Notes under the pieces: model-generated
The model's database searches: none
What the model saw: the letters and a program-made list of their open reading frames with translations, nothing else
What the model was told of the DNA's origin: nothing
Shown: positions 9,461 to 53,777 of the stretch, in pieces
Numbering within the stretch: the first letter of the stretch is position 1
Layout: every line of letters begins with the position of its first letter
Assembly: GCF_003991155.1 (NCBI RefSeq)
Contig: NZ_CP031294.1
From: Escherichia coli
Lineage (GTDB): Bacteria; Pseudomonadota; Gammaproteobacteria; Enterobacterales; Enterobacteriaceae
Reading direction: 5' to 3' (one strand)
Length of the DNA: 64,000 nucleotides
Program-made: the position numbers and the translations under genes

Positions 9461-9505
9461 GTTGAATATGCTCCTTGATTTGGCGGGTTATCCTTGCCCG
9501 CCATT

Positions 9506-22925: not shown

Positions 22926-22945
22926 TAGTAAGTATATACTTACTA
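22926..22945. promoter_or_regulatory. family-1 perfect 20-bp palindrome TAGTAAGTATATACTTACTA upstream of major tail gene
   Basis: Read directly. Confidence 0.55.
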
Positions 22946-28340: not shown

Positions 28341-29915
28341 TCACTCGTTCTCTTGAGTAGATGAGTCCCCATTCCCTCGGGGTTGATCTTGCCCGCTTTC
28401 TTGGGCTGCACCACGATCATAAGTAAGTACTGACTTATTTTCAAGGGTATTTAGATCATTTTTTGGAGGAAAATTCAAGAGATCTTTATCAAATTCCTTT
28501 TTCATCGCCTCAGTAATGTTCGGGAAAATCTTCTCAATAAGCATTTCCATCTGGTGACGACGTACAGAGTCCGGTGCCTGAAGTAATGACAGTTTCTCGG
28601 CAACAGAAAATTCATCAGTAAGGCCACGAATATCGAAACTTTCTGGATATGCAATTAAAGAGTGGTCTTCGTCCAGATCTACCCCCATCCATTTCGCAAC
28701 CAGTAGCATGATTTGGCGTTCAGCCCTTTCCAGACGCTCTGCTTTTGTGACAAGCAAGCTATTTACACGCTGGAAGTCATACATTTTTGCGGCACCAGAT
28801 GAATTATCGATTCCCTGTGCGTTGTCCTGCTTCGTTCGCTCACCAGCTACACCAACTGAATGGTAGATTTCGTTAATCACCGTCTTAATCGTAGTGATGA
28901 TCATCTGAGCTTGTTTCGGGTCTGGTGACAGATAAAACGGCTGGTTTCCACCTTCAGAATCGTAGGTGAAGACTCGCTTTGTGCCCATTTCAAGCACTTT
29001 AGTGTGGTTTTCATCACCAGGTAAAAGCGACTGTACCGGTATAGCCAACTGGCTAAATGTCTGATCCTGAATAATGGCATCAAGGTTTGACAGATAGTTT
29101 GCAACCGCACGATCAAGATAAGCGATATCATCGATCAACGATGGGCTGAAATACGGTGATTCACTTTCTCCAATACAATCAACAGGAAACACAGGAACTA
29201 CGCCGAGATTATGCTCACCGCTATCCTCTAAAATAACTTTTGCCTGACGGCGACCTGCTCCACCAGCGCCCTTCTTCACTTCCTCACGGAACAGATACCA
29301 CTCGTTTTGTGTCCACAGACGATAACGTTGGTATTCCTGACCTGTAGAAGTAAAAGGATCTGCGTCATCACGAGCGACTTCCACAATTAACGCCCACAAC
29401 ATATTCCCGTCGTCGTCCCATGCCACATCCAGCATTTGCTGAGGTGAAATCCAGTAGGCGTAGGCGCGAGCATCTTTCTTTTTCTCGTCAGCTACTGACT
29501 CAACATCACCACTCATCGTGCTATCGACAACAACCCATATGCGACCGTAAATAGACGACTGCAAATCAATAGCGGCCATAAATGAGTCAATAGAGGCATT
29601 CTGGCGAGTCGCACGTTTCCAGAAATTGCGGATCTGCTCTGGTGCCTCTTCGATATTTCTATGAATGTCTTCTTTAAAGAGATATTTGTTGATGAGGTTT
29701 ACCACCTCACGAGTGTGGTTGAAGCGATAAGCACGTTCAACTCGCTCCTTAAACTCCTGATCTCCCTCTTTAAAGTAACGAAAGATATTGTCTGTAAACC
29801 AACCACGCCCGCCAGCGTAAGTGCTGGCGAGGAAGTCCCAATGTTCTTTTTTCTTTTCGTATTCCGGGTGGCGTCGCGCCACCAGATCCTTAATTTGTTT
29901 GTCGTTCAATTCCAT
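28341..29915 (-). CDS. portal protein
   Basis: 524 aa, immediately downstream of large terminase. Confidence 0.7.
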   Translation of the reverse strand: MELNDKQIKDLVARRHPEYEKKKEHWDFLASTYAGGRGWFTDNIFRYFKEGDQEFKERVERAYRFNHTREVVNLINKYLFKEDIHRNIEEAPEQIRNFWKRATRQNASIDSFMAAIDLQSSIYGRIWVVVDSTMSGDVESVADEKKKDARAYAYWISPQQMLDVAWDDDGNMLWALIVEVARDDADPFTSTGQEYQRYRLWTQNEWYLFREEVKKGAGGAGRRQAKVILEDSGEHNLGVVPVFPVDCIGESESPYFSPSLIDDIAYLDRAVANYLSNLDAIIQDQTFSQLAIPVQSLLPGDENHTKVLEMGTKRVFTYDSEGGNQPFYLSPDPKQAQMIITTIKTVINEIYHSVGVAGERTKQDNAQGIDNSSGAAKMYDFQRVNSLLVTKAERLERAERQIMLLVAKWMGVDLDEDHSLIAYPESFDIRGLTDEFSVAEKLSLLQAPDSVRRHQMEMLIEKIFPNITEAMKKEFDKDLLNFPPKNDLNTLENKSVLTYDRGAAQESGQDQPRGNGDSSTQENE

Positions 29916-29928: not shown

Positions 29929-29946
29929 GATAATTACTTACCTATC
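29929..29946. promoter_or_regulatory. family-1 motif GATAATTACTTACCTATC between terminase stop and portal start
   Basis: Read directly. Confidence 0.5.
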
Positions 29947-31198
29947 GAGAACCACCAAGAATAACACGGTTTTTGACTGGATACCTACGATGTACTGGAT
30001 AGCCCAATGCGTCTGCACTATGCTCAATGCCACCTGTCTTATCCATATCTCGTGTTCCAGGCTTGTAGATGACTTTTTCCAGTGAATCAATCAAATGCTT
30101 GCACTTCGGATCGATATACAGCCGGATATCTCCAGATGCGGTCATCAGCATTCGGTTAACAGCATTAACACGATCCGCAATTGGCGGGTGCTTTTTCGAA
30201 TAATCGACACGTAAGAATCCCTTCTCTTTGAATATGTCGACGTCAGACTCCCCGCGAGCATGTTGGCGATAAGCACCTGCCGGATCTGGAAATACCGTTA
30301 TCTGTGATTTCCAGCGCCAGAAGCGTCTCTCAAGCTCATCACAAACCTCTGCCGTGTTAGAGGAAAAGAGCACCAATTCATCAATTGCCCATAGCTCACC
30401 ATTTGGCTGAGGTTGCAAAATTACTGAAGACATCGGGTCAATGTTGAAGTCCTGCCCTACCCATATAGGCAACCGAGGGTTGAACTGAAGCGGTTTTACA
30501 TGCACGTTACGATCGAACGGGTAGTAAACGCGCCCGGACATGTTCTCAAAGCTCGCCAGGTACTCCTGAGCGAACGATTTCGGGTCCATATCGTTCTTAG
30601 CAGCTTCAATTTCCGCCGTAGGTACAAACGGAGAATCGGCAGTTACAAACTGCCAGCTCTTCCACTGTCCCTTTCTTTGCAGCTCTACGTTCTGGCCTAT
30701 AGTCCACAGTTTGTGAAATTCCGAGAAGCCTTTTGGCGTACCAATGATCAGTGCACCGCCGCGTGTCGATGAAAGAGTAGGTCGTAACACCTTGTACCAG
30801 GTGTCAGCCTTCATATCCTGAAATTCATCAAGCACTACAAAATGCAACGCTACGCCGCGCAGAGTGTCAGGCTTATCAGCACCTTTGAGGGCGATCTCCG
30901 AACCGTTCTTCAACACGATTGTCATCGTGGTGTCGTTCTTTTTCCTAACCCACTTACGAGGCAGAACTTCCTGTAGATCGTCCCACAAAATCTGGCGAGC
31001 CATCTGGTAAGTAGGAGCGACATACCAGACTCTTTGCTTTTTTTCCTTTGCCGCCGCACGAATAATAGTGGAGATCGACAACCGGGATTTTCCCCAGCGT
31101 CGACCAGCACAAACAACTTTAAATCGATGCGGAGACTGGAAGACTTTCATCTGTCCAGAATGCAGTTGCACAAGACTGAGCGAGGACGGGATTGCCAT
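29942..31198 (-). CDS. terminase large subunit
   Basis: Walker A CAGRRWGKS, Walker B-like VVLDEFQ, C-terminal nuclease-like region; upstream of portal. Confidence 0.8.
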   Translation of the reverse strand: MAIPSSLSLVQLHSGQMKVFQSPHRFKVVCAGRRWGKSRLSISTIIRAAAKEKKQRVWYVAPTYQMARQILWDDLQEVLPRKWVRKKNDTTMTIVLKNGSEIALKGADKPDTLRGVALHFVVLDEFQDMKADTWYKVLRPTLSSTRGGALIIGTPKGFSEFHKLWTIGQNVELQRKGQWKSWQFVTADSPFVPTAEIEAAKNDMDPKSFAQEYLASFENMSGRVYYPFDRNVHVKPLQFNPRLPIWVGQDFNIDPMSSVILQPQPNGELWAIDELVLFSSNTAEVCDELERRFWRWKSQITVFPDPAGAYRQHARGESDVDIFKEKGFLRVDYSKKHPPIADRVNAVNRMLMTASGDIRLYIDPKCKHLIDSLEKVIYKPGTRDMDKTGGIEHSADALGYPVHRRYPVKNRVILGGSR

Positions 31199-31830
31199 TA
31201 TTCGTCCTCCCCTTCACTTCCATCATCTGTCGCATCAAATTCGCTTAGAGCTTCTTCTTCCAACGTCTCAAGCAATTCGTCATCGATGATTTCAGGCTCG
31301 TCGTCTTCCTGACGTAATTTCGCCACCTGGGAAGGCGTAAGCTCACCAAATACCAGGTTCGGAATTTCTTCCTCGTCATTTTCCGCATGATCCATGCCCA
31401 ATGCTTTGGACGAAACTTCAAAGCATTTTGCAAGGGTATTACTGGCTCTCTGTAAGCTCTTGAGAGAATCCTCAATCGCCCCTAAAGGCTTACCCTCACG
31501 TTTGGCCGTAGTGACTTCGACCATCACCATCTGCCCCAACGCATACGCCCAGCCGTCATAACGTGTACGACGTTCTTCTATCTTTTCCGCACGGGCTTTA
31601 GCGCGAAGCTCTGCGTCAGATTTAAGAGACTCACGAACCATCTTCCCAACAGAGTCCGCGCCTTTCTCTAATCCTCGCTTTTTGAAATGTCTGGAGAGTG
31701 TTTCACGACGAATGCCGTACTCTTCCTCCAGCTTTGAGAGTGTATATTCGCCTGACGTCCATTTGGCTTCAGCTTCGGCCCACTCCGCTGGTGTCAGGCG
31801 AGTTTTTACCTCGTCTTTTTCGACCGTCAT
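31198..31830 (-). CDS. terminase small subunit candidate (HTH, acidic C-terminus)
   Basis: 210 aa, start of terminase large subunit overlaps its stop; N-terminal HTH-like segment. Confidence 0.5.
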   Translation of the reverse strand: MTVEKDEVKTRLTPAEWAEAEAKWTSGEYTLSKLEEEYGIRRETLSRHFKKRGLEKGADSVGKMVRESLKSDAELRAKARAEKIEERRTRYDGWAYALGQMVMVEVTTAKREGKPLGAIEDSLKSLQRASNTLAKCFEVSSKALGMDHAENDEEEIPNLVFGELTPSQVAKLRQEDDEPEIIDDELLETLEEEALSEFDATDDGSEGEDE

Positions 31831-31925
31831 AGATCCCTCTAAAACACACAGAGCGCGTCCATGCGCTCTAAAACAACTTGTTTACTGCATCTGCTAACCA
31901 ACTTGTTTTCTGGGGTGTTTAATTA

Positions 31926-31993
31926 GGTCTGGCATGTCTTACGAAGCCTGCTTCCGTATATATTTAATAAGTTACTTATTATTTATATATACA
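31926..31993. repeat. long imperfect palindrome (gcctgcttccgtatat-AT-rich core-atatacagatgcagg), copy 1 of 2
   Basis: Read directly; second copy with same arms at 62229-62289. Confidence 0.7.
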
Positions 31994-32025
31994 GATGCAG
32001 GTCTTTAAATAAGCTCCCAGACCGA

Positions 32026-32292
32026 TTACATCACCAGTAACTTCGCTTTGGCTCGACCTAAAGTGGTTAACCCAAGAGTCCGGCGGTGATAGCGATTGTC
32101 ACTGCGTTGGCGCGTATGCCCTTTCTCCACCAGCCCCTTTTTTATCAGAGCGCGAATTGAGAACTGGATACTTTGCTTGGTTGTCTTGTACGGCAAAACT
32201 TCAAGCAATTCGTCCAGGTCAAGTAGATGACCTCGCTCATAACCGAGATTGAGCGTTTTGATGATGTCCTTTTGTTTGTCGGTTAACGTCAT
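32026..32292 (-). CDS. small winged-helix/HTH-like DNA-binding protein
   Basis: 88 aa basic protein, last gene of the ParB/ABC/GNAT operon. Confidence 0.4.
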   Translation of the reverse strand: MTLTDKQKDIIKTLNLGYERGHLLDLDELLEVLPYKTTKQSIQFSIRALIKKGLVEKGHTRQRSDNRYHRRTLGLTTLGRAKAKLLVM

Positions 32293-32301
32293 GGCAAATC
32301 C

Positions 32302-33192
32302 TTATGCCGGTAAAGCAATTTCTAACGGTTTATCCAAAGGTTGTTTGTCGAATGCCAGCAGTGGCAGCGTGTCAGGCAGTCGACGGCCAAAGTCAGGGTT
32401 TCGGTACACACCATACAACGGAGACGTAAAGCTCAGGTTGTGAATGTCCTTGAGCAGCTTCACAATGCTGGCCTCGTCCACCAGACTGTCGGCAATGTCC
32501 TGAATCGTCGTGCCACGATTCCGCCCAGCTTTTGCCAGGGAACTGTTCTTATGGTAGTCCGCCACCAAATCGCGCAGCGCACGGCGACGACGAGACTCGC
32601 TCATAGCGAACAACTCTTTGACGATCGCCTCGTTATCACCCGGGTCGGAGCGGAAATGGCGCTGGAACACACGCAGTGCACTTTCATAGCTCTTCGGTCG
32701 CTCAGGGCGGATGAACTTAAACCCTGCTTTCATGGCGAAGGGATTGTATTTGCTCATCGAGGACTGGATCTCAATGATTGGCCGGTCATGCATCCTGCTA
32801 ACCAGGTTAATCATTCTATAAGAGACGCCTACGCCACGATACTGAGTATCCACAACTGAGCGACTGATCACCGCAAAGTTGTTATTCACGTACCGACCCC
32901 AGTACTGGTTAGCCACGGTGGTATTAGTGGTTGGTTTCAACTTAGGAAACATGCGGTGGCGAGGTGCCAACAGTAGTTTCGGGTAAGCCATAACCACGAC
33001 GCCCACCAGACGGTCATCAAGTTCGCAGCGATAGTAAGTTGGCGCGAAAGGTTTGCCGTCTGTTTTGTAGTGAAGCGACTTAAGAGCGTGCCAGTCCTCT
33101 ACAGTTCCCTTTGTAACAGTCATTCGCTCCAGAAAGTCCAGATGACGCGGAAACTCTTCAGGGCGGTAGCGTTTAATGATGATGTCCGTCAT
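32302..33192 (-). CDS. GNAT-like acyltransferase-domain protein (tentative)
   Basis: 296 aa; central QYRGVGVSYRMINLV resembles GNAT acetyl-CoA motif A, followed by KAGFKFI. Confidence 0.35.
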   Translation of the reverse strand: MTDIIIKRYRPEEFPRHLDFLERMTVTKGTVEDWHALKSLHYKTDGKPFAPTYYRCELDDRLVGVVVMAYPKLLLAPRHRMFPKLKPTTNTTVANQYWGRYVNNNFAVISRSVVDTQYRGVGVSYRMINLVSRMHDRPIIEIQSSMSKYNPFAMKAGFKFIRPERPKSYESALRVFQRHFRSDPGDNEAIVKELFAMSESRRRRALRDLVADYHKNSSLAKAGRNRGTTIQDIADSLVDEASIVKLLKDIHNLSFTSPLYGVYRNPDFGRRLPDTLPLLAFDKQPLDKPLEIALPA

Positions 33193-33854
33193 GAATGGAC
33201 CTCATCATGACTACCATTGTGATATTCCACCTTCACGCGTTCTTTGTAGTGCTTGGTGATCTGCATATCAGGGCGCAGCGCGTTCTTCAGGTCTTCGTGA
33301 GTCGTCGCCACCATTACCGTCGCACCAACCTTTCGAGCGGCACGCTGGAGGTTAGACGCCACAACCTGAGCGGTTACACGGTCGAGAACAGCGCCGAACT
33401 CGTCAGCAGCCCATACTTTAGCGCCTGACTCAATCAGTTTGGCAATCTTGAGACGATATTTCTGGCCGTCTGACATTTCAGAAGGCTTGCGAACAAACAG
33501 ATATGCATCGTTCAGACCAGCCATAGATAACAACCCAAGCGCATCACTGGTCGTTTTGCCCAACTGATCGATGACGTTAACCTCATTATCGAAGGTAAAA
33601 TCATCGATGGAGGCTACAGACAGCCCTTCATCCTTCATCTGTCGTTGCAACTCGCGCAGCACAACGGATTTGCCGGAACCGGATTGGCCGGTGATGTACA
33701 CCACATCGCCCTGCTTCACTTCCAGCTCCAGATTGTCGTAAAGCGTCCACTCTTTTTCGTCCAGGCCAAGCCCGAACGACTCAGCGATTTCCAACGTGCG
33801 CGTGGTTTTATTTACGCGTGTCTGAAACGATACGTTGATGATGTATTTGCTCAT
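33189..33854 (-). CDS. small ABC-type ATPase (nucleotide-binding domain only)
   Basis: Walker A GQSGSGKS, ABC signature LSDGQKYR, Walker B VWAADEFGAVLD, H-loop TTHE. Confidence 0.7.
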   Translation of the reverse strand: MSKYIINVSFQTRVNKTTRTLEIAESFGLGLDEKEWTLYDNLELEVKQGDVVYITGQSGSGKSVVLRELQRQMKDEGLSVASIDDFTFDNEVNVIDQLGKTTSDALGLLSMAGLNDAYLFVRKPSEMSDGQKYRLKIAKLIESGAKVWAADEFGAVLDRVTAQVVASNLQRAARKVGATVMVATTHEDLKNALRPDMQITKHYKERVKVEYHNGSHDEVHS

Positions 33855-34519
33855 GCAGCCATCTCCCCGGAAGAGATCTTCTCCGCATATGCCACAAATG
33901 CGTCTACCCCGCTTTCTCCCGTCATTTCTTCCATATGGGCAAGCAAATCACCAACAACAATGGCAGAGCCAGCAGGGAGCGTTTTAAAGCCCAATACGTC
34001 GACAACACGTACTTCTTCCGCTGCAACTTCACGACTGATCTCGGTGTGTTCATCCTTCTGTCGTTTAGTTTCTTCGCCAAGATCGATAACTAGCGAGTCG
34101 GTGTCCATTTCTTCTGTCATACTGCCAACGAGAACATTCAACTCACGCTCTTCAAAGCCGAAAACCTCGATATCGTCCAGAACAAGCGACTCAAGCTCTT
34201 TCTGTAGCTTAATTGCATCGTAATCAATGCTGGCAAGTCGGTTATCTTCAAGGCGCTTCGCACGAACCTCGTCATCACTGAGATCATCGCGAACAATAAC
34301 CGGTACGCGCTCAAGTCCAGCAAAAATTGCAGCCTCACGGCGGCCGTGGCCAGTAATAATTACGTCGTTCTTATCGACCGTAATTGGCTGGTCAAATCCG
34401 CGCTTTTTAATGGCTGCGGCTAGATCTCGGATCTGCTGTTCATCATGCTTTTTGGCATTCATCTCATAGGGAATAAGATCTGCCGGGTCGCGATATACGA
34501 TTTCAAACTTTTTGGTCAT
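33851..34519 (-). CDS. ParB/Srx-fold domain protein 2
   Basis: Start at ATG overlapping upstream stop (TAATG); ParB N-domain-like QPITVDKNDVIITGHGRREAAIFAGLERVPVIV. Confidence 0.65.
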   Translation of the reverse strand: MTKKFEIVYRDPADLIPYEMNAKKHDEQQIRDLAAAIKKRGFDQPITVDKNDVIITGHGRREAAIFAGLERVPVIVRDDLSDDEVRAKRLEDNRLASIDYDAIKLQKELESLVLDDIEVFGFEERELNVLVGSMTEEMDTDSLVIDLGEETKRQKDEHTEISREVAAEEVRVVDVLGFKTLPAGSAIVVGDLLAHMEEMTGESGVDAFVAYAEKISSGEMAA

Positions 34520-35217
34520 TACATACGCTCCTTGTAGTAGTCGACCAGCCACACCAGAGCCTCACCAGCGTTCTCCATTTCATTACCGGTGTTAATAGCC
34601 TGCTCTTTGATGATGTTTTTTATGGTTTCTGCAACACGATCTGACGCATCGAAAGTTACTTTGAAGCGCATGGTCTGATGTTCCGCACCCACACGTTCGG
34701 TTTTCTCTCGTTTGTCGGTATCGACAGGCTCATCACTACCACGAGACAACGCCTCCAGTGCTTCAAGGTCGATTGCCGCCTCTTTTGCTAAAACCATCGA
34801 GATTTCGTCGTCATACGGAGCGATTTCAGACAGTTGATAGTCAAGTTCTGACTGAATTTCTTCAATGAAGCGTTGCAATGCGATTTGGTCGTCTTCACCG
34901 TATCGCTCGTTGTCCACCAGTGACATCTGTTTAGCTACGACATCGCTAATTTTGCCCACAGAAAGCACCGGAACCGTTGAAATTCCTTGCTCAATAGCAG
35001 CACGCCAGCGATGTTCGCCGCCGAGGATTTCAAAAAATCCATCTTCAAGTTCACGAGCCAAAATTGGCTTAAAAAAGCCCAATTTTTCGATAGAACCTTT
35101 CAGTTTTTCAAAATTCTGCGCACCAACCGAATTGGTGTTCCAGGTATTCGGGCGAAGGTTGGCAACATCAACCTGCAAAATCGTGATTTTTACATCCATT
35201 TTATTGCTACAATCCAC
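34519..35217 (-). CDS. ParB/Srx-fold domain protein 1
   Basis: ParB N-domain-like segment FEILGGEHRWRAAIEQGISTVPV. Confidence 0.65.
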   Translation of the reverse strand: MDCSNKMDVKITILQVDVANLRPNTWNTNSVGAQNFEKLKGSIEKLGFFKPILARELEDGFFEILGGEHRWRAAIEQGISTVPVLSVGKISDVVAKQMSLVDNERYGEDDQIALQRFIEEIQSELDYQLSEIAPYDDEISMVLAKEAAIDLEALEALSRGSDEPVDTDKREKTERVGAEHQTMRFKVTFDASDRVAETIKNIIKEQAINTGNEMENAGEALVWLVDYYKERM

Positions 35218-35281
35218 TAAGTAATCACTTACTTATTATAATAGCCAAATAACATACAAAAGGCACTAAGGAAAGAGGTTT

Positions 35282-36841
35282 ATGACTGTTCGGATTGTAT
35301 CTAACGCAGTAAATGCGCTTATTTCTGGCGCAGATGACAAGGTAAAGCAACTGGTGCAGCAAATGTTGAGCTACGAAGTCGAGACTGGCGACTGGAAGGG
35401 CACAAGCACGATGTTCAACTGGAGTAAAAACTCGTTCCCTGCTGGCTTTGCCAAGCCTGTAGCGGCGAACTTGAACAAGGCGGGCATCAAATGTGTTCAT
35501 ATCCGCAAAGACAAAGCCCCGGCGCTTGGTAAACCAAATCCTGCGGTTAACCCATTCCCATACAATCCTGATTATGCGTATCAGGATCAGACTGTGGAAA
35601 CACTGGTTCGAGAGGGAATGATGATTGCGCAGATCGCTACTGGTGGCGGGAAATCTAACGTTGCCTGCAAAGCAGCTGCACGTATCGGTCGAATGACATT
35701 ATTTTTAACAACCCGCTCTGTTCTGATGTTTCAAATGGCCGAAAACTTCCAGAGATCCATCGACTACCGCGCCGAAAATGGCGAACCGTGGTTAAAAGAC
35801 CAAAAGGTTGGAGTCATTGGCTCGGGTGAGTTCCAGGTATCACGACATATCAACGTCGCTACAGTTCAAACTCTTGCAAGTTTCCTCGAAGAACCACCAC
35901 GCGATGCAACACCAGATAAGAAAAGCTACCACCTCAAACGTCGGGAGTTGGTGAAACGCTTCCTTTCAAGTGTCTCTCTTCTTATTCTGGAAGAGGCGCA
36001 TGAGTCTTCAGGCTCAAATTTCTATGACATCGCCAGATTATGTGTGAACGCAGACTATCGTCTGGCGCTTACAGCCACGCCGTTCATGAAGGATTCGACG
36101 GAAGCCAACATGCGCCTGATGGCGGTGGCCGGGCGAATTGAAATTAAAGTCACAGAAAAGTACCTGATTGATCGAGGCATTCTGGCAAAGCCGTACTTCC
36201 TTTATCATAAAGTTGCCTACAAGCCAGACGAGGCCAGAATCAAGGCCGAACTTGCCAACAAACACCTCAATTTTAGAGTTGGTATGAGCACCGCCTACCA
36301 AAAGGCTTATCAGTTGGGGATCGTGTATAATTTGGGACGTAACGAGGCCATAGTGCGCGAGGCATTGCTTTATAAGCAACATTCACTCAACTGCATGACT
36401 CTGGTTCGTCTTAAACGCCACGGGCAAATCCTGATGGAGATGATGAAGGAGTCAGGTCTTAAAGTTGATTTCATCTATGGGGAATCTAACCAGACGACAA
36501 GGCAAGCAAAGCTGAATAGTTTAGCGTCTGGTGAAATAGATGTTTTAATAGGCTCGACTATTCTGGATGTTGGTGTTGATGTGCCAAGCGTTGGTGCGGT
36601 CATTCTTGCTGGTGGTGGGAAAGCAGAAGTTGAAATGAGACAGCGTGTCGGTCGTGGCTTACGAGCCAAAAAAAATCAGGCAAACGTGTGTTTTATCACC
36701 GATTTCATTGACATTAGCAACAAATACCTGTTGTCTCACTCTTATGAGCGAAAACACATCATCGACACCACACCTGGCTTTGCAGAAGGTGTATTGCCTA
36801 TTGATGGAGCATTCGATTTTGGAGTTCTGAAACGAGATTAG
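35282..36841 (+). CDS. superfamily 2 helicase (DEAD/DEAH-like, ResIII-type)
   Basis: Walker A ATGGGKS, motif II LILEEAH, motif III LTATP, motif VI QRVGRGLR. Confidence 0.85.
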   Translation: MTVRIVSNAVNALISGADDKVKQLVQQMLSYEVETGDWKGTSTMFNWSKNSFPAGFAKPVAANLNKAGIKCVHIRKDKAPALGKPNPAVNPFPYNPDYAYQDQTVETLVREGMMIAQIATGGGKSNVACKAAARIGRMTLFLTTRSVLMFQMAENFQRSIDYRAENGEPWLKDQKVGVIGSGEFQVSRHINVATVQTLASFLEEPPRDATPDKKSYHLKRRELVKRFLSSVSLLILEEAHESSGSNFYDIARLCVNADYRLALTATPFMKDSTEANMRLMAVAGRIEIKVTEKYLIDRGILAKPYFLYHKVAYKPDEARIKAELANKHLNFRVGMSTAYQKAYQLGIVYNLGRNEAIVREALLYKQHSLNCMTLVRLKRHGQILMEMMKESGLKVDFIYGESNQTTRQAKLNSLASGEIDVLIGSTILDVGVDVPSVGAVILAGGGKAEVEMRQRVGRGLRAKKNQANVCFITDFIDISNKYLLSHSYERKHIIDTTPGFAEGVLPIDGAFDFGVLKRD

Positions 36842-36843
36842 TT

Positions 36844-37122
36844 ATGAGTGAAAAGAAAACAACTTACTGTCAGGTAGCATTGTCTGATAAGGCCAATGAC
36901 AAACTTGGAAAGTTTCAAGTGAAACTAAAAGAAAAAAATATCAAAATGTCTAAGGCTGAAGTCATAAATACCATTCTGGAACAATTGACAATGGCCGACT
37001 TTGACAAGGTTATATCTTCTGTCGGGGCTTCCGCTAAGACTCGTGAGAAAATCATGCGTATCTATGAGAACTCTAATATGACAAAGGAAGATCTCAAAAC
37101 GCTATTAAGCAGATTAAAATAA
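36844..37122 (+). CDS. small protein, possible ribbon-helix-helix DNA-binding protein
   Basis: 92 aa, start 3 nt after helicase stop (coupled); RHH assignment tentative. Confidence 0.4.
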   Translation: MSEKKTTYCQVALSDKANDKLGKFQVKLKEKNIKMSKAEVINTILEQLTMADFDKVISSVGASAKTREKIMRIYENSNMTKEDLKTLLSRLK

Positions 37123-37148
37123 TCACGCTATCAATTAGGGAGACAAAG

Positions 37149-37613
37149 ATGAAGTCTCCCATACTGTTCACTTTCTGTTCTAAAACTATCATGAAATACT
37201 CGCTTCTCCCTCTACTAACGTTACCAGTGTTGATGCTTGCCGCGTGCCAATCACACCCAATATCAATCCATGACGCCAAACCAGCACCGCAGGCCAAAGT
37301 GTTCAAGTATCAAAGCGCAGCGCCAGCTACGTTGGTGGTAATGAGAGACACAGGTTTTGTAGGAGCTGGATGTGATGCTTCCATTTTCATCAACGGCGAA
37401 ACTGTCGCAAAACTGGCTACAGGCGAAAAAGCGACTTTCCATTTAAATGCCGGAGAATTAATTGTGGGTGCATCTCTTGAAGGTGCAGGTTTATGTGCTC
37501 TAAACCCCGCTCGTCAAGAGCGAGAAACGACTCTGAAGAATGGAGACACAAAAGCGTTCAGGGTGTTTACCAGCAATTCTGGTGACATCGACATTCTGCC
37601 AACAACTCTGTGA
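37149..37613 (+). CDS. putative lipoprotein
   Basis: Signal peptide with lipobox-like LAAC (MKYSLLPLLTLPVLMLAAC). Confidence 0.55.
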   Translation: MKSPILFTFCSKTIMKYSLLPLLTLPVLMLAACQSHPISIHDAKPAPQAKVFKYQSAAPATLVVMRDTGFVGAGCDASIFINGETVAKLATGEKATFHLNAGELIVGASLEGAGLCALNPARQERETTLKNGDTKAFRVFTSNSGDIDILPTTL

Positions 37614-37617
37614 TGAC

Positions 37618-38142
37618 ATGACAACCAAAGATATTACCTACGGTATCCAAGCTGAACTCTGGCCGCGAGATTACACTAACGTTGAAAAACTACTGATGTT
37701 CTGGCGCAGAGAACAAATTCCTGTAAGGGTCACTCTCGAAGATGGCCAGGCGTTTTGCATGTACGTTTATGGCCTCATGCCATCTCGTAACAAAGTTGAC
37801 CTTTGCCCAGCCCCTTTTGACAAAGAAAATCGTATAAGGCTCCCACTTGAACGCATTAGTACAATTGAATCAGGTGTGGTTGACAGTATCGCTCACGATT
37901 TCAAAGGTCGACTAACAGTTCACCCTGATTATGTCGATAATCGGCCATCACGCCGCGATTTTTTTGCAATTTGCAACCAAGCCTACAAAGCAAACAAATC
38001 TATAAGGGTGTACATGGCGGATGGCCGTGAAATTGAGGGGGTGTCAGCAGGCGCAGATGCTTGTCAGGTTACACTACGTGTCGAGAACGGTAGAAAAATA
38101 GTTGTTTTGTTCGATTGGGTTGAACGAATTTTGCCTTTTTGA
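37618..38142 (+). CDS. hypothetical protein
   Basis: Start set at in-frame ATG just after upstream stop; ORF track 37540..38142. Confidence 0.4.
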   Translation: MTTKDITYGIQAELWPRDYTNVEKLLMFWRREQIPVRVTLEDGQAFCMYVYGLMPSRNKVDLCPAPFDKENRIRLPLERISTIESGVVDSIAHDFKGRLTVHPDYVDNRPSRRDFFAICNQAYKANKSIRVYMADGREIEGVSAGADACQVTLRVENGRKIVVLFDWVERILPF

Positions 38143-38145
38143 GTT

Positions 38146-38454
38146 ATGAAATCGATATTGTTACCACCATTATTTTTACTTTGCTCAGTTGCGGCAAATG
38201 CAATGGACTATAAGCCTGTCATTCAGTCGCTGATGAATGACGTGTGCTCAACGTCTCAGAATGTATCAGTTTGCATGTATCAATTTTCGGCAGCCGTAAA
38301 AGCAGGAAAAGCGATAGGCGAGAATGTGGAACTGTGTAAGAAAGTGGCAAATGAAGAACGGGCAATGTTGGATTGCGAATCTAGCGAGTCATCGGCACAG
38401 TTCGTTGATGCGCTATTTGACACCAATCGTAAGGCTGTAGAGTCTGTTCAATAA
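38146..38454 (+). CDS. small secreted protein (signal peptide)
   Basis: MKSILLPPLFLLCSVAANA signal-peptide-like N-terminus; 102 aa. Confidence 0.5.
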   Translation: MKSILLPPLFLLCSVAANAMDYKPVIQSLMNDVCSTSQNVSVCMYQFSAAVKAGKAIGENVELCKKVANEERAMLDCESSESSAQFVDALFDTNRKAVESVQ

Positions 38455-38645
38455 ATCTATAAGGTTAATAACCGGCTAAGTCCGGTTATTATTTTTCACA
38501 TCACTTCTTTATATCTACAAATCAAATAACCTAAATATATATAAGGTCTAAAGCCGCAATCAATTATTTATTTAGGGAACACCTTCGACGATCTCGCTTT
38601 TATTTCTAGGACTTTCATCCCTGCAAAAAATTTAAAAAAAAACAC

Positions 38646-38673
38646 TTGCAATCTTTTTTCGCATATCGATAAT
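38646..38673 (+). promoter_or_regulatory. sigma70-like promoter candidate (TTGCAA-N16-GATAAT) preceded by A-tracts
   Basis: Hexamers read directly upstream of the 38739 operon; not validated. Confidence 0.4.
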
Positions 38674-38738
38674 TGAACTCGTCGAAAGCGAAGACGCTAA
38701 CGACAATAAATTTTAAATTTACATAAGGAAAAATTATC

Positions 38739-39389
38739 ATGGCTAACATTATCATTTCTAAAAAATCCATCATTGAAGCTGCTTCCATTGTATCCGATGA
38801 ACTGCGCGAAAAAGCAGATCTGGCAACTCAAACATATAACGAACATTATAAAAATGGTACGCACACTAAAGCAGACAAAGCAAATATGCAAGCTGCGACC
38901 ACTAAACTTGCTTACTTCATCAACAACGTCGTAAACGCAGTAGAAGACGAAAAATTATGCTCTGTTTTCTACTATGCGATTAAAGCAAGCAAACAAGCGC
39001 CAGAAGTATTTTTCCGTGATGCAATGACTAATAGTTATTCTCTGGAAAAACTGGTTTATCTGGTTAAATCAATTAAATCTGGTAAATGCGTTTATTCCAT
39101 CGCTGATATGTCTGGATCTCGTGTATTCGCTTTAATCGATATGATTAACGACGAGATCGACACGTTCACTAATGGCGCTGTTTTCGATTTAATGAATGAA
39201 GCTAAAAAAGCGTGTGAAATTAAATTGGACGCTGGTTATACTCAAGCCAACCAGTTGATCAATCTTTGCGAACGTCTTGGACTTGTTGAAAAAGTCAAAG
39301 GAGCTGGGAGCGCGAAAGCTGGTACTCAGCAATATCGCTTCATTAAAAATGATTTCTACAATTATTTAGCTGATGCTTTCAAAGCGTAA
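38739..39389 (+). CDS. hypothetical protein (AT-rich)
   Basis: 216 aa ORF with upstream promoter candidate and downstream hairpin. Confidence 0.55.
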   Translation: MANIIISKKSIIEAASIVSDELREKADLATQTYNEHYKNGTHTKADKANMQAATTKLAYFINNVVNAVEDEKLCSVFYYAIKASKQAPEVFFRDAMTNSYSLEKLVYLVKSIKSGKCVYSIADMSGSRVFALIDMINDEIDTFTNGAVFDLMNEAKKACEIKLDAGYTQANQLINLCERLGLVEKVKGAGSAKAGTQQYRFIKNDFYNYLADAFKA

Positions 39390-39437
39390 TTAATGGAATC
39401 AAGCGCCCACTATGGGCGCTTTAAAGGAGCTTTGAAA

Positions 39438-39641
39438 ATGGTCAGCTATGACAAGATCCGCGCGGAATATCGCGCAAAGTATCGCGCTTATAAACTAGAA
39501 TTAATCGATGATTTAATCGCGCAACGCGACCAATTAAATTTTACGTTTTCTGATTTGCTTAACAGCAAGCGAGATTGCAAGCGCAAACGTGAATACTTAC
39601 GTTTAAGCGCATTAATCGGAAAACTTCAAAATTCTATTTAA
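39438..39641 (+). CDS. small hypothetical protein
   Basis: Start at ATG preceded by AAAGGAG; ORF track version starts inside the upstream hairpin. Confidence 0.35.
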   Translation: MVSYDKIRAEYRAKYRAYKLELIDDLIAQRDQLNFTFSDLLNSKRDCKRKREYLRLSALIGKLQNSI

Positions 39642-39661
39642 TTTTTTTAAGGAGCTTAATC

Positions 39662-39892
39662 ATGTTTGTTCTTATCGCTGGCGTTAACGTCCATAACGAA
39701 TATTATGTTAATCGCATCGCTGGGATCGCTGGTTACGCTGGGCGCGCAGTCGAGTTTATCGATGAAACAACGCGTAAAATTGATTTATTGAGCGACCAGG
39801 AGCGAAAAAAAGCAGACGTGAACGACGCTGATATATTTTTAATGTTAAAAGCGTTTGTAGAAATGGGATTTAAAATCAGTTTACACAAATAA
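39662..39892 (+). CDS. small hypothetical protein
   Basis: 76 aa, SD AAGGAG upstream; followed by two tandem terminators. Confidence 0.4.
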   Translation: MFVLIAGVNVHNEYYVNRIAGIAGYAGRAVEFIDETTRKIDLLSDQERKKADVNDADIFLMLKAFVEMGFKISLHK

Positions 39893-39897
39893 AATCG

Positions 39898-39925
39898 AGC
39901 GCCCACTATGGGCGCTTTTTTCGTT
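39898..39925 (+). terminator. intrinsic terminator (gagcgcccac-tat-gggcgct + T-run); same hairpin also at 39401-39422
   Basis: Stem-loop and T6 run read directly. Confidence 0.7.
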
Positions 39926-39942
39926 TCCAATACTTCCACAAT

Positions 39943-39970
39943 AACGCGCCATTGATGGCGCGTTTTTTAT
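39943..39970 (+). terminator. second tandem intrinsic terminator (aacgcgccat-tga-tggcgcgtt + T-run)
   Basis: Stem-loop and T6 run read directly. Confidence 0.65.
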
Positions 39971-40383
39971 TGTCTTTAACTCACTCCAACAACATAAAAA
40001 TAAGCGCCAAAATAACGCCATAAACGCGCTTTTATATCCTTACCAGTACATACCCATTACTTAACACATTAACGCGCTTAAAACGCGTTATATTGCGCTA
40101 TAGCGTATGGTTAATCATTGGCTTTTAGTCTTGCTATGTGATCCGCGTTTATTTGTCGGCGCGGATCGGCATTTTGTTTTGTTCCGTATCCGCTCGCGTA
40201 TTATGTGCGCGTGATTTTTCACATAATCACACCACTTAATCACGTATGTGATTATGCTACGAAAGAAATCTGGATGTCTCAGGCGACGAAAGTCATCATA
40301 ATTTTCCCCGCTCGCCTGTCCGACAACCGCTGGTTGGATTCCACCAGCTTCCCGATGTTTTTTTCTACATAAAGGCGAATGCA

Positions 40384-42701: not shown

Positions 42702-42764
42702 TTCACTCTCCGTAGTGTTTTGGTTATTTTTATATTCTATGATCGTAAGTATGTACTTACAATA

Positions 42765-48608: not shown

Positions 48609-49709
48609 ATGAGCGAGTCCAAATCGCCGGATGCCCTGAGAGCAATGGTAGCCGGTACGCTGGCTAATTTTCAGCACCCAACCCTGAAACACAACCTGAC
48701 TACGCTTAAAGCGTTACACCATGTTGCGTTGATGGATGACACACTGCATGTCGAACTAATCATGCCTTTCGTGTGGAATAAGCCTTTTGAAGACCTGAAA
48801 GAGCAATGTAGTGGTGATCTGCTCCGTATCACTGGCGCAAAGGCTATTGACTGGAAGCTGTCGTACAACATTGCCACGCTTAAGCGCGTCAAAAACCAAC
48901 CAGGCATTAATGGCGTTAAGAACATTATCGCCGTCAGCTCAGGCAAGGGCGGCGTGGGTAAATCCTCCACGGCGGTAAACCTGGCACTGGCGTTGGCTGC
49001 TGAAGGTGCGAAAGTTGGTATTTTGGATGCCGATATCTATGGTCCATCAATTCCAACCATGCTGGGCGCGGAAAACCAACGTCCAACCTCACCTGACGGT
49101 ACTCACATGGCACCTATCATGTCTCATGGCCTGGCAACCAACTCTATTGGTTATCTGGTCACCGACGACAATGCAATGGTGTGGCGTGGACCGATGGCCA
49201 GCAAGGCGCTGATGCAGATGTTGCAGGAAACTCTATGGCCTGATCTGGACTATCTCGTTCTCGATATGCCGCCGGGCACTGGTGATATTCAGTTGACGCT
49301 GGCGCAGAACATTCCTGTAACTGGTGCGGTTGTGGTAACTACGCCGCAAGACATCGCGCTGATCGATGCGAAGAAAGGCATTGTGATGTTCGAAAAAGTC
49401 GAAGTGCCGGTACTGGGTATCGTCGAAAACATGAGTGTGCATATTTGCAGTAACTGCGGTCATCACGAGCCAATTTTTGGCACCGGTGGCGCACAGAAAC
49501 TGGCCGAGAAATACAACACGCAGTTGTTAGGCCAAATGCCACTTCATATCTCTCTTCGTGAAGATCTGGATAACGGAACACCAACCGTTATTAGTCGTCC
49601 AGATAGCGAATTTACGGCTATTTATCGTGACCTCGCAGATCGCGTTGCCGCCCAAATGTATTGGCAAGGTGAAGTAATACCTGGCGAAATCGCATTCCGC
49701 GCAGTGTGA
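48609..49709 (+). CDS. mrp: Fe-S cluster carrier ATPase Mrp/ApbC
   Basis: Walker A SGKGGVGKS, CxxC motif (CSNCGHH), conserved divergent arrangement with metG as in enterobacterial chromosomes. Confidence 0.93.
   Translation: MSESKSPDALRAMVAGTLANFQHPTLKHNLTTLKALHHVALMDDTLHVELIMPFVWNKPFEDLKEQCSGDLLRITGAKAIDWKLSYNIATLKRVKNQPGINGVKNIIAVSSGKGGVGKSSTAVNLALALAAEGAKVGILDADIYGPSIPTMLGAENQRPTSPDGTHMAPIMSHGLATNSIGYLVTDDNAMVWRGPMASKALMQMLQETLWPDLDYLVLDMPPGTGDIQLTLAQNIPVTGAVVVTTPQDIALIDAKKGIVMFEKVEVPVLGIVENMSVHICSNCGHHEPIFGTGGAQKLAEKYNTQLLGQMPLHISLREDLDNGTPTVISRPDSEFTAIYRDLADRVAAQMYWQGEVIPGEIAFRAV

Positions 49710-52396: not shown

Positions 52397-52400
<4 letters not shown>
50838..52400 (+). CDS. hsdM: Type I restriction-modification N6-adenine DNA methyltransferase subunit
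   Basis: NPPY motif ([10 protein letters not shown]), AdoMet-binding motif, 520 aa; operon with hsdS and hsdR. Confidence 0.93.
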
Positions 52401-53656
<1,256 letters not shown>

Positions 53657-53777
53657 TTGACCATTGCTACCGACCGGATCACCTTAACATCCGGTCTATA
53701 TAGAGACTATTTTTTACACGCCGGAAGTCGCCCTTAAAGCCCTTCCGGCCCTTGCCAGACGGCACAAAGGATGCGCT

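What the first reader, a model, noticed from the sequence alone, without database searches (positions are those of the whole stretch)
35282..37122. SF2 helicase translationally coupled to a small putative RHH protein, divergent from the ParB operon
The helicase has a ~110-aa N-terminal extension before Walker A and is followed 3 nt later by a 92-aa basic protein. The divergent promoter region at 35218-35281 contains a family-1 motif. This could be a replication/recombination or anti-restriction unit co-regulated with the ParB/ABC/GNAT operon.
Basis: partly seen in the sequence, partly recalled or inferred. Interest (0 to 1): 0.35.

Follow-up and report, generated by a model that had tools for sequence, protein, structure and literature searches.

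The report
UvsW-type helicase with small RHH partner
This is a real but ordinary gene pair of a well-known family of phage-plasmids (SSU5 / pHCM2 / Yersinia pMT1): a T4 UvsW-type branched-DNA helicase followed by a small, fast-evolving, probably ribbon-helix-helix DNA-binding protein, always facing a conserved ParB–ABC–acetyltransferase-like operon next to the DNA-packaging genes.

Summary
The window is an E. coli SSU5-like phage-plasmid, 100% identical here to RefSeq plasmids, which annotate the pair as 'DEAD/DEAH box helicase' and 'hypothetical protein'.

- **Helicase (35282-36841).** It belongs to the T4 UvsW family. A 27-member profile hits the UvsW structure 2oca best (E=3.7e-27), end to end. 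The roughly 100-aa N-terminal 'extension' is the UvsW_N domain. All catalytic motifs are invariant.
- **Small protein (36844-37122, 92 aa, pI 9.6).** It has no sequence match to any Pfam family or solved structure. A linker-joined dimer model pairs residues 7-13 of both copies into a β-ribbon followed by two helices. A syntenic relative's best solved-structure hit is the RHH protein ParG. I call it a probable RHH with an extra C-terminal helical part. It is not detectably related to T4 UvsW.1.
- **Linkage.** In 50,697 phage records, the 31 that hold a helicase of ≥40% identity are exactly the 31 that hold the acetyltransferase-like protein of the divergent operon. The small gene follows the helicase in gammaproteobacterial members. 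It is absent in Pseudomonas phage hairong (Nickievirus) and replaced by an unrelated small ORF in two Rhizobium phages.
- **Motif.** The palindrome TAAGTA-NN-TACTTA is real and clade-wide, and occurs even where the RHH is absent.

Most likely this is a recombination/replication helicase with an RHH regulator or adaptor. Interest is low to moderate.

The parts
35200..35281 (.). Divergent intergenic/promoter region between ParB1 and the helicase
   Evidence: ParB1 start at the ATG at 35199 follows RefSeq, and the CCAT there is invariant in 11 relatives. Mean column identity across relatives is 79%, although synonymous sites of the flanking genes are saturated against SSU5-type relatives.
35218..35231 (.).
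   Evidence: 5 exact copies in the window against 0.07 expected. It is conserved at this position in relatives, down to Rhizobium phage V1VFA-S and a Vreelandella chromosomal element.
35237..35242 (+). -10-like hexamer TATAAT reading towards the helicase, 1-5 nt after the palindrome
   Evidence: Read from the sequence and conserved in relatives. The sigma-70 consensus scan did not call it because there is no -35 hexamer. Its function is inferred.
35269..35278 (+). Shine-Dalgarno of the helicase gene (AGGAAAGAGG)
   Evidence: Read from the sequence; AAGGAAA is invariant in 11 relatives.
35282..35575 (+). Helicase N-terminal domain (aa 1-98): UvsW_N-type domain
   Evidence: Family profile positions 16-210 align to T4 UvsW residues 15-217. 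Pfam UvsW_N (PF21241) is hit by 19 of 27 family members, best E=1.4e-8. The window protein itself does not reach E≤0.01 on its own.
35576..36841 (+). Helicase motor (RecA-like domains 1 and 2) and C-terminal tail, with stop codon
   Evidence: ResIII/DEAD at aa 99-270 and Helicase_C at aa 364-462. Motifs I (TGGGKS), II (EEAHE), III (TATP) and VI (QRxGRGLR) are invariant in 27 homologues. Best solved relative is T4 UvsW 2oca, then XPBII.
36844..36990 (+). Small protein, aa 1-49: probable ribbon-helix-helix DNA-binding domain (strand 7-13, helices 15-30 and 37-47)
   Evidence: - AF2 monomer: pLDDT 88-93 over this part.
- GS-linked dimer: strands at 7-13 in both copies, and these are the only strands in the model, so they pair with each other.
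- ParG is the top solved-structure hit of a syntenic relative, E=0.015.
- hhalign to ParG (P=0.015) and CopG (P=0.009), both in register.
36991..37122 (+). Small protein, aa 50-92: helical C-terminal part with the conserved terminal helix M-T-x-E-D-L-x-x-L-L, plus stop
   Evidence: Helices 50-76 and 81-89. D83 is invariant and L88 near-invariant in the 17-sequence SSU5-type alignment, and the motif is still recognisable in distant members.
34519..35199 (-). Context: ParB/Srx-domain protein 1, first gene of the divergent operon
   Evidence: ParB_N E=3.3e-13; phrog_723; syntenic in all relatives.
33851..34519 (-). Context: ParB/Srx-domain protein 2
   Evidence: ParB_N E=1.5e-8; phrog_930; RefSeq coordinates.
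33189..33854 (-). Context: soluble ABC-type ATPase with no transmembrane partner
   Evidence: ABC_tran E=5.8e-13; phrog_293.
32302..33192 (-). Context: 296-aa protein with a weak GNAT-like motif (invariant R118-G119-x-G121), the best-conserved protein of the block
   Evidence: phrog_886 E=1e-164. Acetyltransf_10 is a weak hit in 5 of 11 homologues. Found in exactly the 31 phage records that hold the closest helicases. It is 96.6-99% identical between E. coli, Salmonella and Klebsiella elements.
32026..32292 (-). Context: 88-aa putative winged-helix DNA-binding protein, last gene before TerS (31198-31830) and TerL (29942-31198)
   Evidence: phrog_900; annotated 'DNA binding domain containing protein' in phage Cyrano; weak LexA_DNA_bind hit.

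Best explanation
**Helicase.** The 519-aa protein is a T4 UvsW-type SF2 helicase: an N-terminal UvsW_N DNA-junction-binding domain followed by two RecA-like motor domains. By homology it should act on branched DNA, for example regressing forks, migrating Holliday junctions or D-loops, and removing R-loops. That would serve the lytic, recombination-assisted replication of this roughly 110-kb phage-plasmid and leave unbranched concatemers for packaging.

**Small protein.** The 92-aa protein made right behind it is a dimeric ribbon-helix-helix DNA-binding protein with an extra C-terminal helical part. Its most likely role is as a sequence-specific DNA binder that autoregulates its own transcription unit. 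A second possibility is that it directs the helicase to DNA. ParG and TraM/TraY are RHH proteins that do both kinds of job with their ATPase or helicase partners (recalled from the literature, not tested here).

**Shown versus inferred.**
- Shown: family membership of the helicase, intact catalytic motifs, reality and purifying selection of the small gene, and the conserved synteny.
- Model-based: the RHH fold.
- Inferred: all activities, the regulatory role, translational coupling, and any physical contact between the two proteins.
For: **Helicase**
- The family profile's best solved-structure hit is T4 UvsW 2oca (E=3.7e-27), covering the N-terminal domain and both motor domains.
- Pfam UvsW_N is hit in 19 of 27 homologues.
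- Motifs I, II, III and VI are invariant.
- Annotators of phage Cyrano already named it 'UvsW helicase'.
- UvsW and its relative T5 D10 are branch-migration enzymes of recombination-dependent replication (PMC5180179, read).
- The element carries its own DnaE, DnaB-like helicase, primase, ligase, FEN-like exonuclease and an SbcCD-like nuclease. Such nucleases partner recombination-dependent replication in T4 (from my own knowledge).

**Small protein**
- Monomer model pLDDT 82.
- The linked-dimer model gives reciprocal strands at 7-13 with pLDDT about 85.
- ParG RHH is the top solved-structure hit of a syntenic relative.
- hhalign to ParG and CopG is in register.
- pI 9.6 and dN/dS 0.08.

**Linkage**
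- It directly follows the helicase in all 83 SSU5-like loci.
- It does so in Xenorhabdus, Vreelandella and Stenotrophomonas relatives and in unnamed assembled contigs, with gaps from -8 to +46 nt; a positional counterpart with only weak HMM similarity follows the helicase in Methylomicrobium.
- One family member sits on an ordinary Rep3/ParA plasmid contig without any helicase. This favours an autonomous DNA-binding role.
Against: - No operator for the small protein was identified.
- The one conspicuous palindrome in the promoter also occurs in Rhizobium phage V1VFA-S, which lacks this protein family. It is therefore not specifically the small protein's site.
- The linked-dimer model is an unconventional use of AF2. 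Its output here reports no inter-chain confidence.
- The helicase lies 30-40 kb from the replication genes, next to the packaging genes and an operon that hosts anti-defence genes in relatives. That fits a conflict role as well as a replication role.
- No UvsX/RecA-type recombinase is named in the RefSeq annotation I read.
- The small protein evolves about 7 times faster than the helicase (dN 0.33 against 0.047) and is dispensable in some lineages.
Confidence: 0.5

Rival explanations
1. The helicase and small protein belong, with the divergent ParB-ParB-ABC-GNAT-like operon, to an early-acting counter-defence module, for example anti-restriction or DNA protection/modification. Its products might be packaged in the capsid and injected with the DNA, as an unfused version of the 'polyvalent proteins' of phages.
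For: - Co-occurrence and the divergent arrangement are strict. The 31 phage records with the GNAT-like protein are the same 31 with the closest helicases.
- The block abuts TerS, TerL and portal.
- Tad2-like anti-Thoeris genes sit inside the operon, between the ABC and GNAT-like genes, in three distant relatives.
- Both ParB paralogues match ParB-methyltransferase fusion families (phrog_498; MTase_II).
- Iyer et al. 2017 describe ParB/Srx, GNAT and helicase domains in capsid-delivered conflict proteins encoded next to virion genes (PMC5512222).
- The helicase core resembles PbeA and the Dnd restriction helicases.
Against: - The helicase's closest characterised relative over its full length is the replication/recombination enzyme UvsW, not an anti-restriction protein.
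- PADLOC and NCBIfam matches cover the generic helicase core and score far below family cut-offs (59 bits against 600).
- All 31 records belong to one phage lineage, so the co-occurrence may be inherited synteny.
- No methyltransferase or known anti-restriction domain is present in the block.
- No virion proteomics data were available.
Confidence: 0.2
2. The small protein is chiefly a dedicated cofactor of the helicase, a functional analogue of T4 UvsW.1 (the small ORF that follows uvsW). It would bind the helicase through its conserved C-terminal helix and tether it to DNA, rather than act as a transcription factor.
For: - Genetic linkage is tight. Spacing runs from overlapping to a few nucleotides in many lineages: 2 nt here, -8 to +10 nt in distant members. 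That suggests co-production.
- The C-terminal helix motif (MTxEDLxxLL) is among the best-conserved parts across distant members. Strand residues 8, 10 and 12 vary; I infer that these face the DNA.
- There is a positional precedent: T4 UvsW is followed by UvsW.1, described as its potential DNA-binding partner (PMC7824862).
Against: - The helicase persists without the small protein in the Nickievirus hairong, and with an unrelated ORF in two Rhizobium phages.
- One family member occurs on a plasmid contig with no helicase.
- The small protein evolves about 7 times faster than its supposed partner.
- No interaction test could be run.
Confidence: 0.2
3. The pair serves the plasmid state of the element (replication initiation, copy control or partition), with the ParB-like proteins and the RHH acting as a partition or centromere-binding system.
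For: - ParB_N domains and an RHH resembling ParG lie side by side.
- The element is maintained as a plasmid: all 250 matching places in E. coli genomes are on plasmids.
- The gene pair is present in 822 plasmid records, including Y. pestis pMT1.
Against: - A separate ParA-like gene with a small partner gene lies elsewhere (window 1609-2277), and RepA is elsewhere too.
- There is no ParA next to these ParB-like genes; an ABC ATPase sits there instead.
- The same block occurs in phages isolated as plaque formers on Pseudomonas, Stenotrophomonas, Xanthomonas and Rhizobium, and in a chromosomal element of Vreelandella.
- The block is physically contiguous with the terminase genes, not with the plasmid maintenance genes.
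Confidence: 0.05

Closest known systems
Bacteriophage T4 UvsW helicase (PDB 2OCA; Pfam UvsW_N PF21241 + SF2 core)
   Same: - Same domain order and similar length (519 aa against about 503-510 aa).
- Best solved-structure hit of the family profile, aligned from the N-terminal domain through both motor domains.
- The W-D/K-G...F-P-x-G signature of the N-terminal domain is shared (alignment).
- A small ORF follows the helicase gene in both genomes.
   Different: - Only about 20-25% identity to UvsW (my estimate from the alignment; no tool reported it).
- Motif II is EEAH rather than DECH (the T4 sequence is recalled, not checked here).
- The genomic setting differs: it faces a ParB/ABC/GNAT-like operon beside the terminase genes.
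- The downstream small protein is unrelated to UvsW.1.
- The host is a temperate phage-plasmid with a Pol III-type replisome, not a T4-like phage.
- No biochemistry exists for this protein.
Archaeal XPB / Rad25 helicases (S. tokodaii XPBII 6P4F; A. fulgidus XPB 2FWR) and phage T5 D10
   Same: - Second-best solved relatives of the motor domains (E=1.7e-12 for the single sequence; 9e-24 for the profile).
- T5 D10, described as the UvsW/XPB-like branch-migration helicase of another large siphovirus, is the functional comparator (PMC5180179).
   Different: - The NCBIfam XPB equivalog scores 51 bits against a cut-off of 610.
- The N-terminal domain aligns to UvsW_N. The HMM alignments to XPBII start only at the motor domain (query residue 99, profile position 109).
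- No Bax1-like nuclease partner is present.
Ribbon-helix-helix proteins with added domains that work with an ATPase or helicase: ParG (TP228, PDB 1P94), TraM/TraY of F-like plasmids, CopG, AcaB
   Same: - Predicted strand-helix-helix that dimerises through the strand.
- In-register alignments to ParG and CopG.
- Like ParG, it is the small second gene behind an NTPase gene.
- Like TraM, it has an RHH N-terminus plus a helical C-terminal part.
   Different: - No significant sequence match to any RHH Pfam family.
- Structural scores are within noise.
- The partner is an SF2 helicase, not a ParA ATPase or a relaxase.
- The family is tiny: 29 representatives among 1.84 billion proteins.
- No DNA target is known.
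T4 UvsW.1 (PDB 2JPN), the small protein encoded after uvsW
   Same: Same position (a small ORF immediately after a UvsW-type helicase gene) and similar size. It is proposed in the literature as a DNA-binding partner of the helicase (PMC7824862).
   Different: - No sequence similarity: the profile search of all PDB chains at E≤10 does not list it.
- UvsW.1 is described as an all-helical protein, whereas this protein has an RHH-type strand.

Membership tests
T4 UvsW-type SF2 helicase | SF2 motor with intact motifs I, II, III and VI | tested here: met
   ResIII/DEAD and Helicase_C are above Pfam cut-offs. TGGGKS, EEAHE, TATP and QRxGRGLR are invariant in 27 homologues.
T4 UvsW-type SF2 helicase | Closest solved relative is UvsW over the whole length | tested here: met
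   Profile against all PDB chains: 2oca ranks first, E=3.7e-27, with two stretches covering profile 16-210 and 233-500. With the single sequence, XPBII ranks first and UvsW fifth.
T4 UvsW-type SF2 helicase | N-terminal UvsW_N domain (PF21241) | tested here: met
   19 of 27 family members hit PF21241, best E=1.4e-8. The window protein alone does not reach E≤0.01, but it aligns in the family profile to UvsW residues 15-100.
T4 UvsW-type SF2 helicase | ATP-dependent unwinding or branch migration of forks, Holliday junctions and R-loops | not testable with these tools
   This is a biochemical property. It is known for T4 UvsW and T5 D10 (PMC5180179).
XPB/Rad25 repair helicase | Score at the level of the NCBIfam XPB equivalog | tested here: not met
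   NF045503 scores 50.9 bits against a cut-off of 610, and TIGR00603 rad25 scores 27 against 329. The N-terminal domain aligns to UvsW_N, while the HMM alignments to XPBII begin only at the motor domain.
Ribbon-helix-helix (RHH) DNA-binding proteins | N-terminal strand that pairs with the strand of a second subunit, followed by two helices | tested here: met
   This is model-based only. The GS-linked dimer gives strands 7-13 and 129-135 (residues 7-13 of the second copy), which are the only strands in the model, followed by helices 15-30 and 37-47, with pLDDT about 80-86. In the monomer model the same segment is extended coil.
Ribbon-helix-helix (RHH) DNA-binding proteins | Sequence or structure match to known RHH families | tested here: inconclusive
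   - No RHH Pfam family is hit by any of 23 members, and there is no PDB hit for the profile.
- A syntenic relative's top PDB hit is ParG, E=0.015, aligned on the RHH.
- hhalign to ParG gives P=0.015 and to CopG P=0.009, both in register; Arc gives nothing.
Ribbon-helix-helix (RHH) DNA-binding proteins | Sequence-specific binding to repeated or palindromic DNA sites | not testable with these tools
   No operator could be assigned. The promoter palindrome also occurs in a phage without this protein family.
T4 UvsW.1 | Homology to UvsW.1 (PDB 2JPN) | tested here: not met
Type Ib partition system (ParA + RHH centromere-binding protein such as ParG) | RHH gene directly downstream of a ParA/ParF-type ATPase gene | tested here: not met
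   The upstream gene is an SF2 helicase. The element's ParA-like gene lies elsewhere (window 1609-2277) with its own 117-aa partner.
Pbe/Dnd-type restriction helicases (PADLOC PbeA; NCBIfam dnd_restrict_1) | Full-length match and presence of the other system components | tested here: not met
   PbeA models score 79 bits over the helicase core only. dnd_restrict_1 scores 59 bits against a cut-off of 600. The neighbouring genes match no Pbe or Dnd component.

The most novel reading that the evidence does not exclude
The nine-gene block is one conserved machine of a clade of 100-120-kb siphoviruses and phage-plasmids. The block runs TerL-TerS-wHTH-GNAT-like-ABC-ParB-ParB on one strand, facing the UvsW-like helicase and the RHH protein on the other. 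In this reading the ParB/Srx proteins, the ABC ATPase and the GNAT-like enzyme modify or guard the phage DNA. The UvsW-type helicase, targeted by the RHH protein, remodels it at packaging or on entry. That would be a new kind of DNA-protection or packaging-linked system rather than a plain replication helicase. The evidence does not exclude this, but the strict co-occurrence can equally be inherited synteny.
Probability: 0.12. Interest if true: 0.6.

Novelty: new member of a known kind. Interest (0 to 1): 0.28.

Why it matters
This gene pair sits in a very common family of phage-plasmids of Enterobacterales. It is on 243 of 5,426 complete E. coli genomes and 822 PLSDB plasmids, including Yersinia pestis pMT1. 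These elements carry resistance genes and other cargo.

- Knowing that the helicase is UvsW-type points to recombination-dependent steps in their lytic replication.
- The small RHH protein is a candidate regulator or targeting factor that could be tested easily.
- The more interesting lead lies next door. An extremely conserved ParB-ParB-ABC-GNAT-like operon, with a slot that hosts anti-Thoeris genes in relatives, has no known function. It is inseparable from this helicase across the clade.
- By itself the finding is an annotation refinement, not a surprise.

Tried and rejected
- **Sequence searches with the small protein.** The single sequence and a 23-member profile found nothing meaningful in Pfam, NCBIfam, PADLOC or the PDB. 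The word-indexed search found only close relatives. The exhaustive profile search of 1.84 billion representatives found just 29.
- **UvsW.1 homology.** Considered because of the positional parallel, and rejected.
- **The promoter palindrome as the RHH operator.** Made unlikely because the palindrome is kept, at the same place and in several copies, in Rhizobium phage V1VFA-S, which has no member of this protein family.
- **Second viral-contig scan with the helicase alignment.** It returned the same close relatives because only the best 80 are kept. Distant contexts came from contig look-ups and the annotated phage collection instead.
- **Sigma-70 promoter scan.** It called nothing in the divergent region.
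- **Rfam.** No match in 31000-40000.
- **Literature.** No paper in the held library treats this helicase, the small protein or the ParB/ABC operon of SSU5-like elements.
- **The 296-aa protein.** Profile search against the PDB gave only a 20-residue GNAT motif match at E about 2.
Full report
**What the window is.** The region 32000-38200 is 99% identical to Escherichia phage CMS-2020a, about 98% to phage Cyrano and 82% to Salmonella phage SSU5. The stretch 35200-37200 is 100% identical to several RefSeq E. coli plasmids of about 110 kb. It occurs in 243 of 5,426 complete E. coli genomes, always on plasmids. The window is therefore an SSU5/pHCM2-type phage-plasmid. RefSeq annotates the two genes as 'DEAD/DEAH box helicase' and 'hypothetical protein'. 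Phage Cyrano's annotators called the first one 'UvsW helicase'. The same pair is on Yersinia pestis pMT1 and on 822 PLSDB plasmids.

**Check of the observation.**
- Both ORFs are as described. The helicase stop (36839-36841) and the next ATG (36844) are 2 nt apart.
- The helicase has ResIII/DEAD at aa 99-270 and Helicase_C at aa 364-462.
- The 92-aa protein has pI 9.6. It belongs to PHROG 1466, of unknown function.
- On the other strand, starting 82 nt away, run ParB, ParB, an ABC ATPase, a 296-aa protein, an 88-aa putative DNA-binding protein, TerS, TerL and portal.
- The palindrome TAAGTAATCACTTA lies at 35218-35231. The pattern occurs 5 times in the window against 0.07 expected.

**The helicase.**
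- With the single sequence the best solved relatives are archaeal XPBII, A. fulgidus XPB and T4 UvsW.
- With a profile of 27 homologues of 48-83% identity, T4 UvsW (2oca) becomes the best hit, E=3.7e-27. It aligns in two stretches that together run from residue 15 to 470 of UvsW, N-terminal domain included.
- Pfam's UvsW_N model is hit by 19 of the 27 homologues. The 'N-terminal extension' is therefore the UvsW N-terminal domain.
- Motifs I, II (EEAHE), III and VI are invariant, so the enzyme should be active.
- Matches to XPB, PbeA and Dnd restriction-helicase models cover the generic core and fall far below family cut-offs.
- UvsW and T5 D10 migrate branches, regress forks and, for UvsW, unwind R-loops in recombination-dependent replication (PMC5180179).
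- The element has its own DnaE, DnaB-like helicase, primase, ligase, flap exonuclease and SbcCD-like nuclease. This fits such a role, though no recombinase is named in the annotation.

**The small protein.**
- The family is very small: 16 clusters by word-indexed search and 29 representatives among 1.84 billion proteins by exhaustive profile search.
- Nothing in Pfam, NCBIfam, PADLOC or the PDB matches by sequence.
- The sequence pattern is that of an RHH: alternating hydrophobic residues at 9, 11 and 13, a Ser/Thr/Pro cap, a helix, a short turn, and a second helix.
- The AF2 monomer model (pLDDT 82) has helices 15-30, 37-47, 50-76 and 81-89 and an extended N-terminus.
- I joined two copies with a 30-residue Gly-Ser linker, in every row of a 19-sequence alignment. 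The model then puts strands at residues 7-13 of both copies. These are the only strands present, so they pair with each other, with pLDDT about 85. That is the RHH signature.
- Independent hints are weak but consistent:
  - The positional counterpart in a Vreelandella element has ParG as its top PDB hit (E=0.015), aligned exactly on the RHH.
  - hhalign places the family in register on ParG and CopG at P about 0.01.
- I rate the RHH fold at about 0.75.
- T4 UvsW.1, the positional analogue, is not detectably related.

**Evolution and linkage.**
- In all 83 SSU5-like loci fetched, every one with enough flank shows the order wHTH / GNAT-like / ABC / ParB / ParB facing helicase / small gene.
- The same order, including portal, TerL and TerS, holds at 45-65% helicase identity. 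Examples are Xenorhabdus, an unnamed 100-kb contig, an ENA contig, a Methylomicrobium contig, the Vreelandella chromosome and a further 102-kb contig.
- In the annotated phage collection the 296-aa protein is found in exactly 31 records. These are the same 31 that hold the closest helicases: Escherichia 4, Salmonella 2, Klebsiella 6, Stenotrophomonas 2, Xanthomonas 1, Rhizobium 10, Pseudomonas 6.
- More distant helicase relatives, in SPO1-like, Twort-like and other phages, were not examined for this context.
- All 31 records share the packaging genes. The link is therefore clade-wide, but it cannot be separated from common descent.
- The small gene is less constant:
  - It is recognisable after the helicase in Enterobacterales, Xenorhabdus, Vreelandella and Stenotrophomonas phage ANB28, and only weakly (HMM E 0.03) in Methylomicrobium.
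  - It also follows the helicase for the distant family members P0159, P0161 and P0163.
  - In Pseudomonas phage hairong, tRNA genes follow the helicase.
  - In Rhizobium phages RHEph10 and V1VFA-S an unrelated 57-61-aa ORF overlaps the helicase stop.
  - One family member lies on a Rep3/ParA/KfrA plasmid contig without a helicase. Another lies on the 29-kb Photorhabdus plasmid pPAU1.
- Spacing ranges from -8 to +46 nt. In Klebsiella-type elements a hairpin and a 25-aa N-terminal extension intervene. Translational coupling is therefore plausible here but not a family trait.
- The small protein changes about 7 times faster than the helicase (dN 0.33 against 0.047 versus SSU5).
- Against phage Cyrano its synonymous divergence is 1.13 while the helicase's is 0.11. 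This marks a recombination boundary at the junction; downstream cargo differs between elements.

**The promoter motif.**
- In relatives the palindrome TAAGTA-NN-TACTTA is followed after 1-2 nt by TATAAT on the helicase strand.
- Similar arrangements occur at 28424, 22929 and 9505.
- It is kept in the same intergenic region in a Vreelandella element and in Rhizobium phage V1VFA-S, where 4 exact copies lie within 14.5 kb.
- V1VFA-S has no member of the small-protein family. The palindrome is thus a clade-wide promoter or operator element, not specifically the RHH's site.
- What binds it is unknown.

**Interpretation.**
- The best-supported reading is a UvsW-type branched-DNA helicase for recombination-assisted lytic replication and concatemer clean-up. 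A dimeric RHH DNA-binding protein would regulate the unit or guide the helicase (confidence 0.5).
- The main rival puts the helicase, with the ParB/ABC/GNAT-like operon, in an early counter-defence or capsid-delivered module (0.2).
- The rival is suggested by three things: the position next to the virion genes, the Tad2-like genes inserted in the operon in three distant relatives, and the framework of Iyer et al. 2017 (PMC5512222).
- A plasmid-maintenance role is unlikely. The element has a separate ParA-like gene with a small partner gene, and the block occurs in phages isolated as plaque formers.

**Verdict.** It is an annotated gene pair of a well-known element family. The helicase is a new member of the UvsW family and the small protein is a probable RHH of a tiny uncharacterised family. 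Novelty is modest. The neighbouring operon is the more intriguing unknown.

Noticed in passing
window 9505-9518, 22929-22942, 28424-28437, 35218-35231, 42746-42759; also L171 (Rhizobium phage V1VFA-S) 4987, 6434, 8316, 11892; L168 7945-7965: The palindrome TAAGTA-NN-TACTTA has 5 exact copies against 0.07 expected. It is often followed after 1-2 nt by a -10-like TATnnT. It is conserved at the head of the ParB/helicase divergent region across the whole phage clade. It is a candidate clade-specific promoter or operator; its binder is unknown.
   Followed up: partly
L167 5437-5727, L170 3471-3773, L171 3649-3936 (relatives); the equivalent slot in the window is the junction 33189-33192 between the ABC and 296-aa genes: Relatives have a variable slot between the ABC ATPase gene and the GNAT-like gene. 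In three distant members it holds Tad2-like (anti-Thoeris) genes (E 1e-16 to 1e-24). In others it holds unrelated ORFs of 84-145 aa. In the window the slot is empty, and the two genes overlap.
   Followed up: partly
window 32302-33192 (-) and 33189-33854 (-): The 296-aa protein (phrog_886) and the ABC ATPase are the most conserved proteins of the block. Between E. coli, Salmonella and Klebsiella elements the 296-aa protein is 96.6-99% identical, while the helicase is about 91-93% and the small protein 50-63%. The 296-aa protein has an invariant R-G-x-G motif like the GNAT acetyl-CoA loop, but no significant family match.
   Followed up: partly
window 36841-37122 and downstream to about 38200: There is a recombination boundary at the helicase/small-gene junction. 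Against phage Cyrano, dS is 0.11 in the helicase and 1.13 in the small gene. Homology ends at about 37094, and the downstream cargo differs between elements.
   Followed up: partly
window 37540-38142 (+) (RefSeq start at about 37618): This gene encodes an FljA-like 'repressor of phase-1 flagellin' (Pfam Flag1_repress, E=2.5e-84). It is preceded by a lipoprotein gene (37149-37613, phrog_890). Flag1_repress genes also lie near the helicase in the Xenorhabdus relative (L086) and on the unnamed contig L178. A phage-plasmid might use it to alter host flagellin expression.
   Followed up: no
window 35208-35215 and 35292-35299: An 8-nt perfect inverted repeat, TACAATCC / GGATTGTA, brackets the divergent region. 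One arm lies just upstream of the ParB1 start and the other within helicase codons 4-6. Both arms are largely conserved in relatives.
   Followed up: no
L086 707-2956 and L167 443-2833 (relatives): The large terminase genes of the Xenorhabdus and Methylomicrobium relatives are 749-796 aa and carry LAGLIDADG homing-endonuclease hits, with an intein-splicing hit as well in the Methylomicrobium gene. The window's TerL is 418 aa and has none.
   Followed up: no
window about 46418-48451, 48609-49709, 50844-56882 (from the RefSeq annotation of the identical plasmid): The same element carries host-like genes metG (methionine-tRNA ligase) and apbC, and a complete type I restriction-modification system (hsdM, hsdS, hsdR).
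   Followed up: no
L174 5001-5300; L172 (Photorhabdus pPAU1) 6001-6246: Two members of the small-protein family occur without an adjacent helicase. One is on a Rep3/ParA/KfrA plasmid contig, behind a 131-aa ORF of unknown function. The other is on a 29-kb plasmid that retains a phage tape-measure gene.
   Followed up: partly
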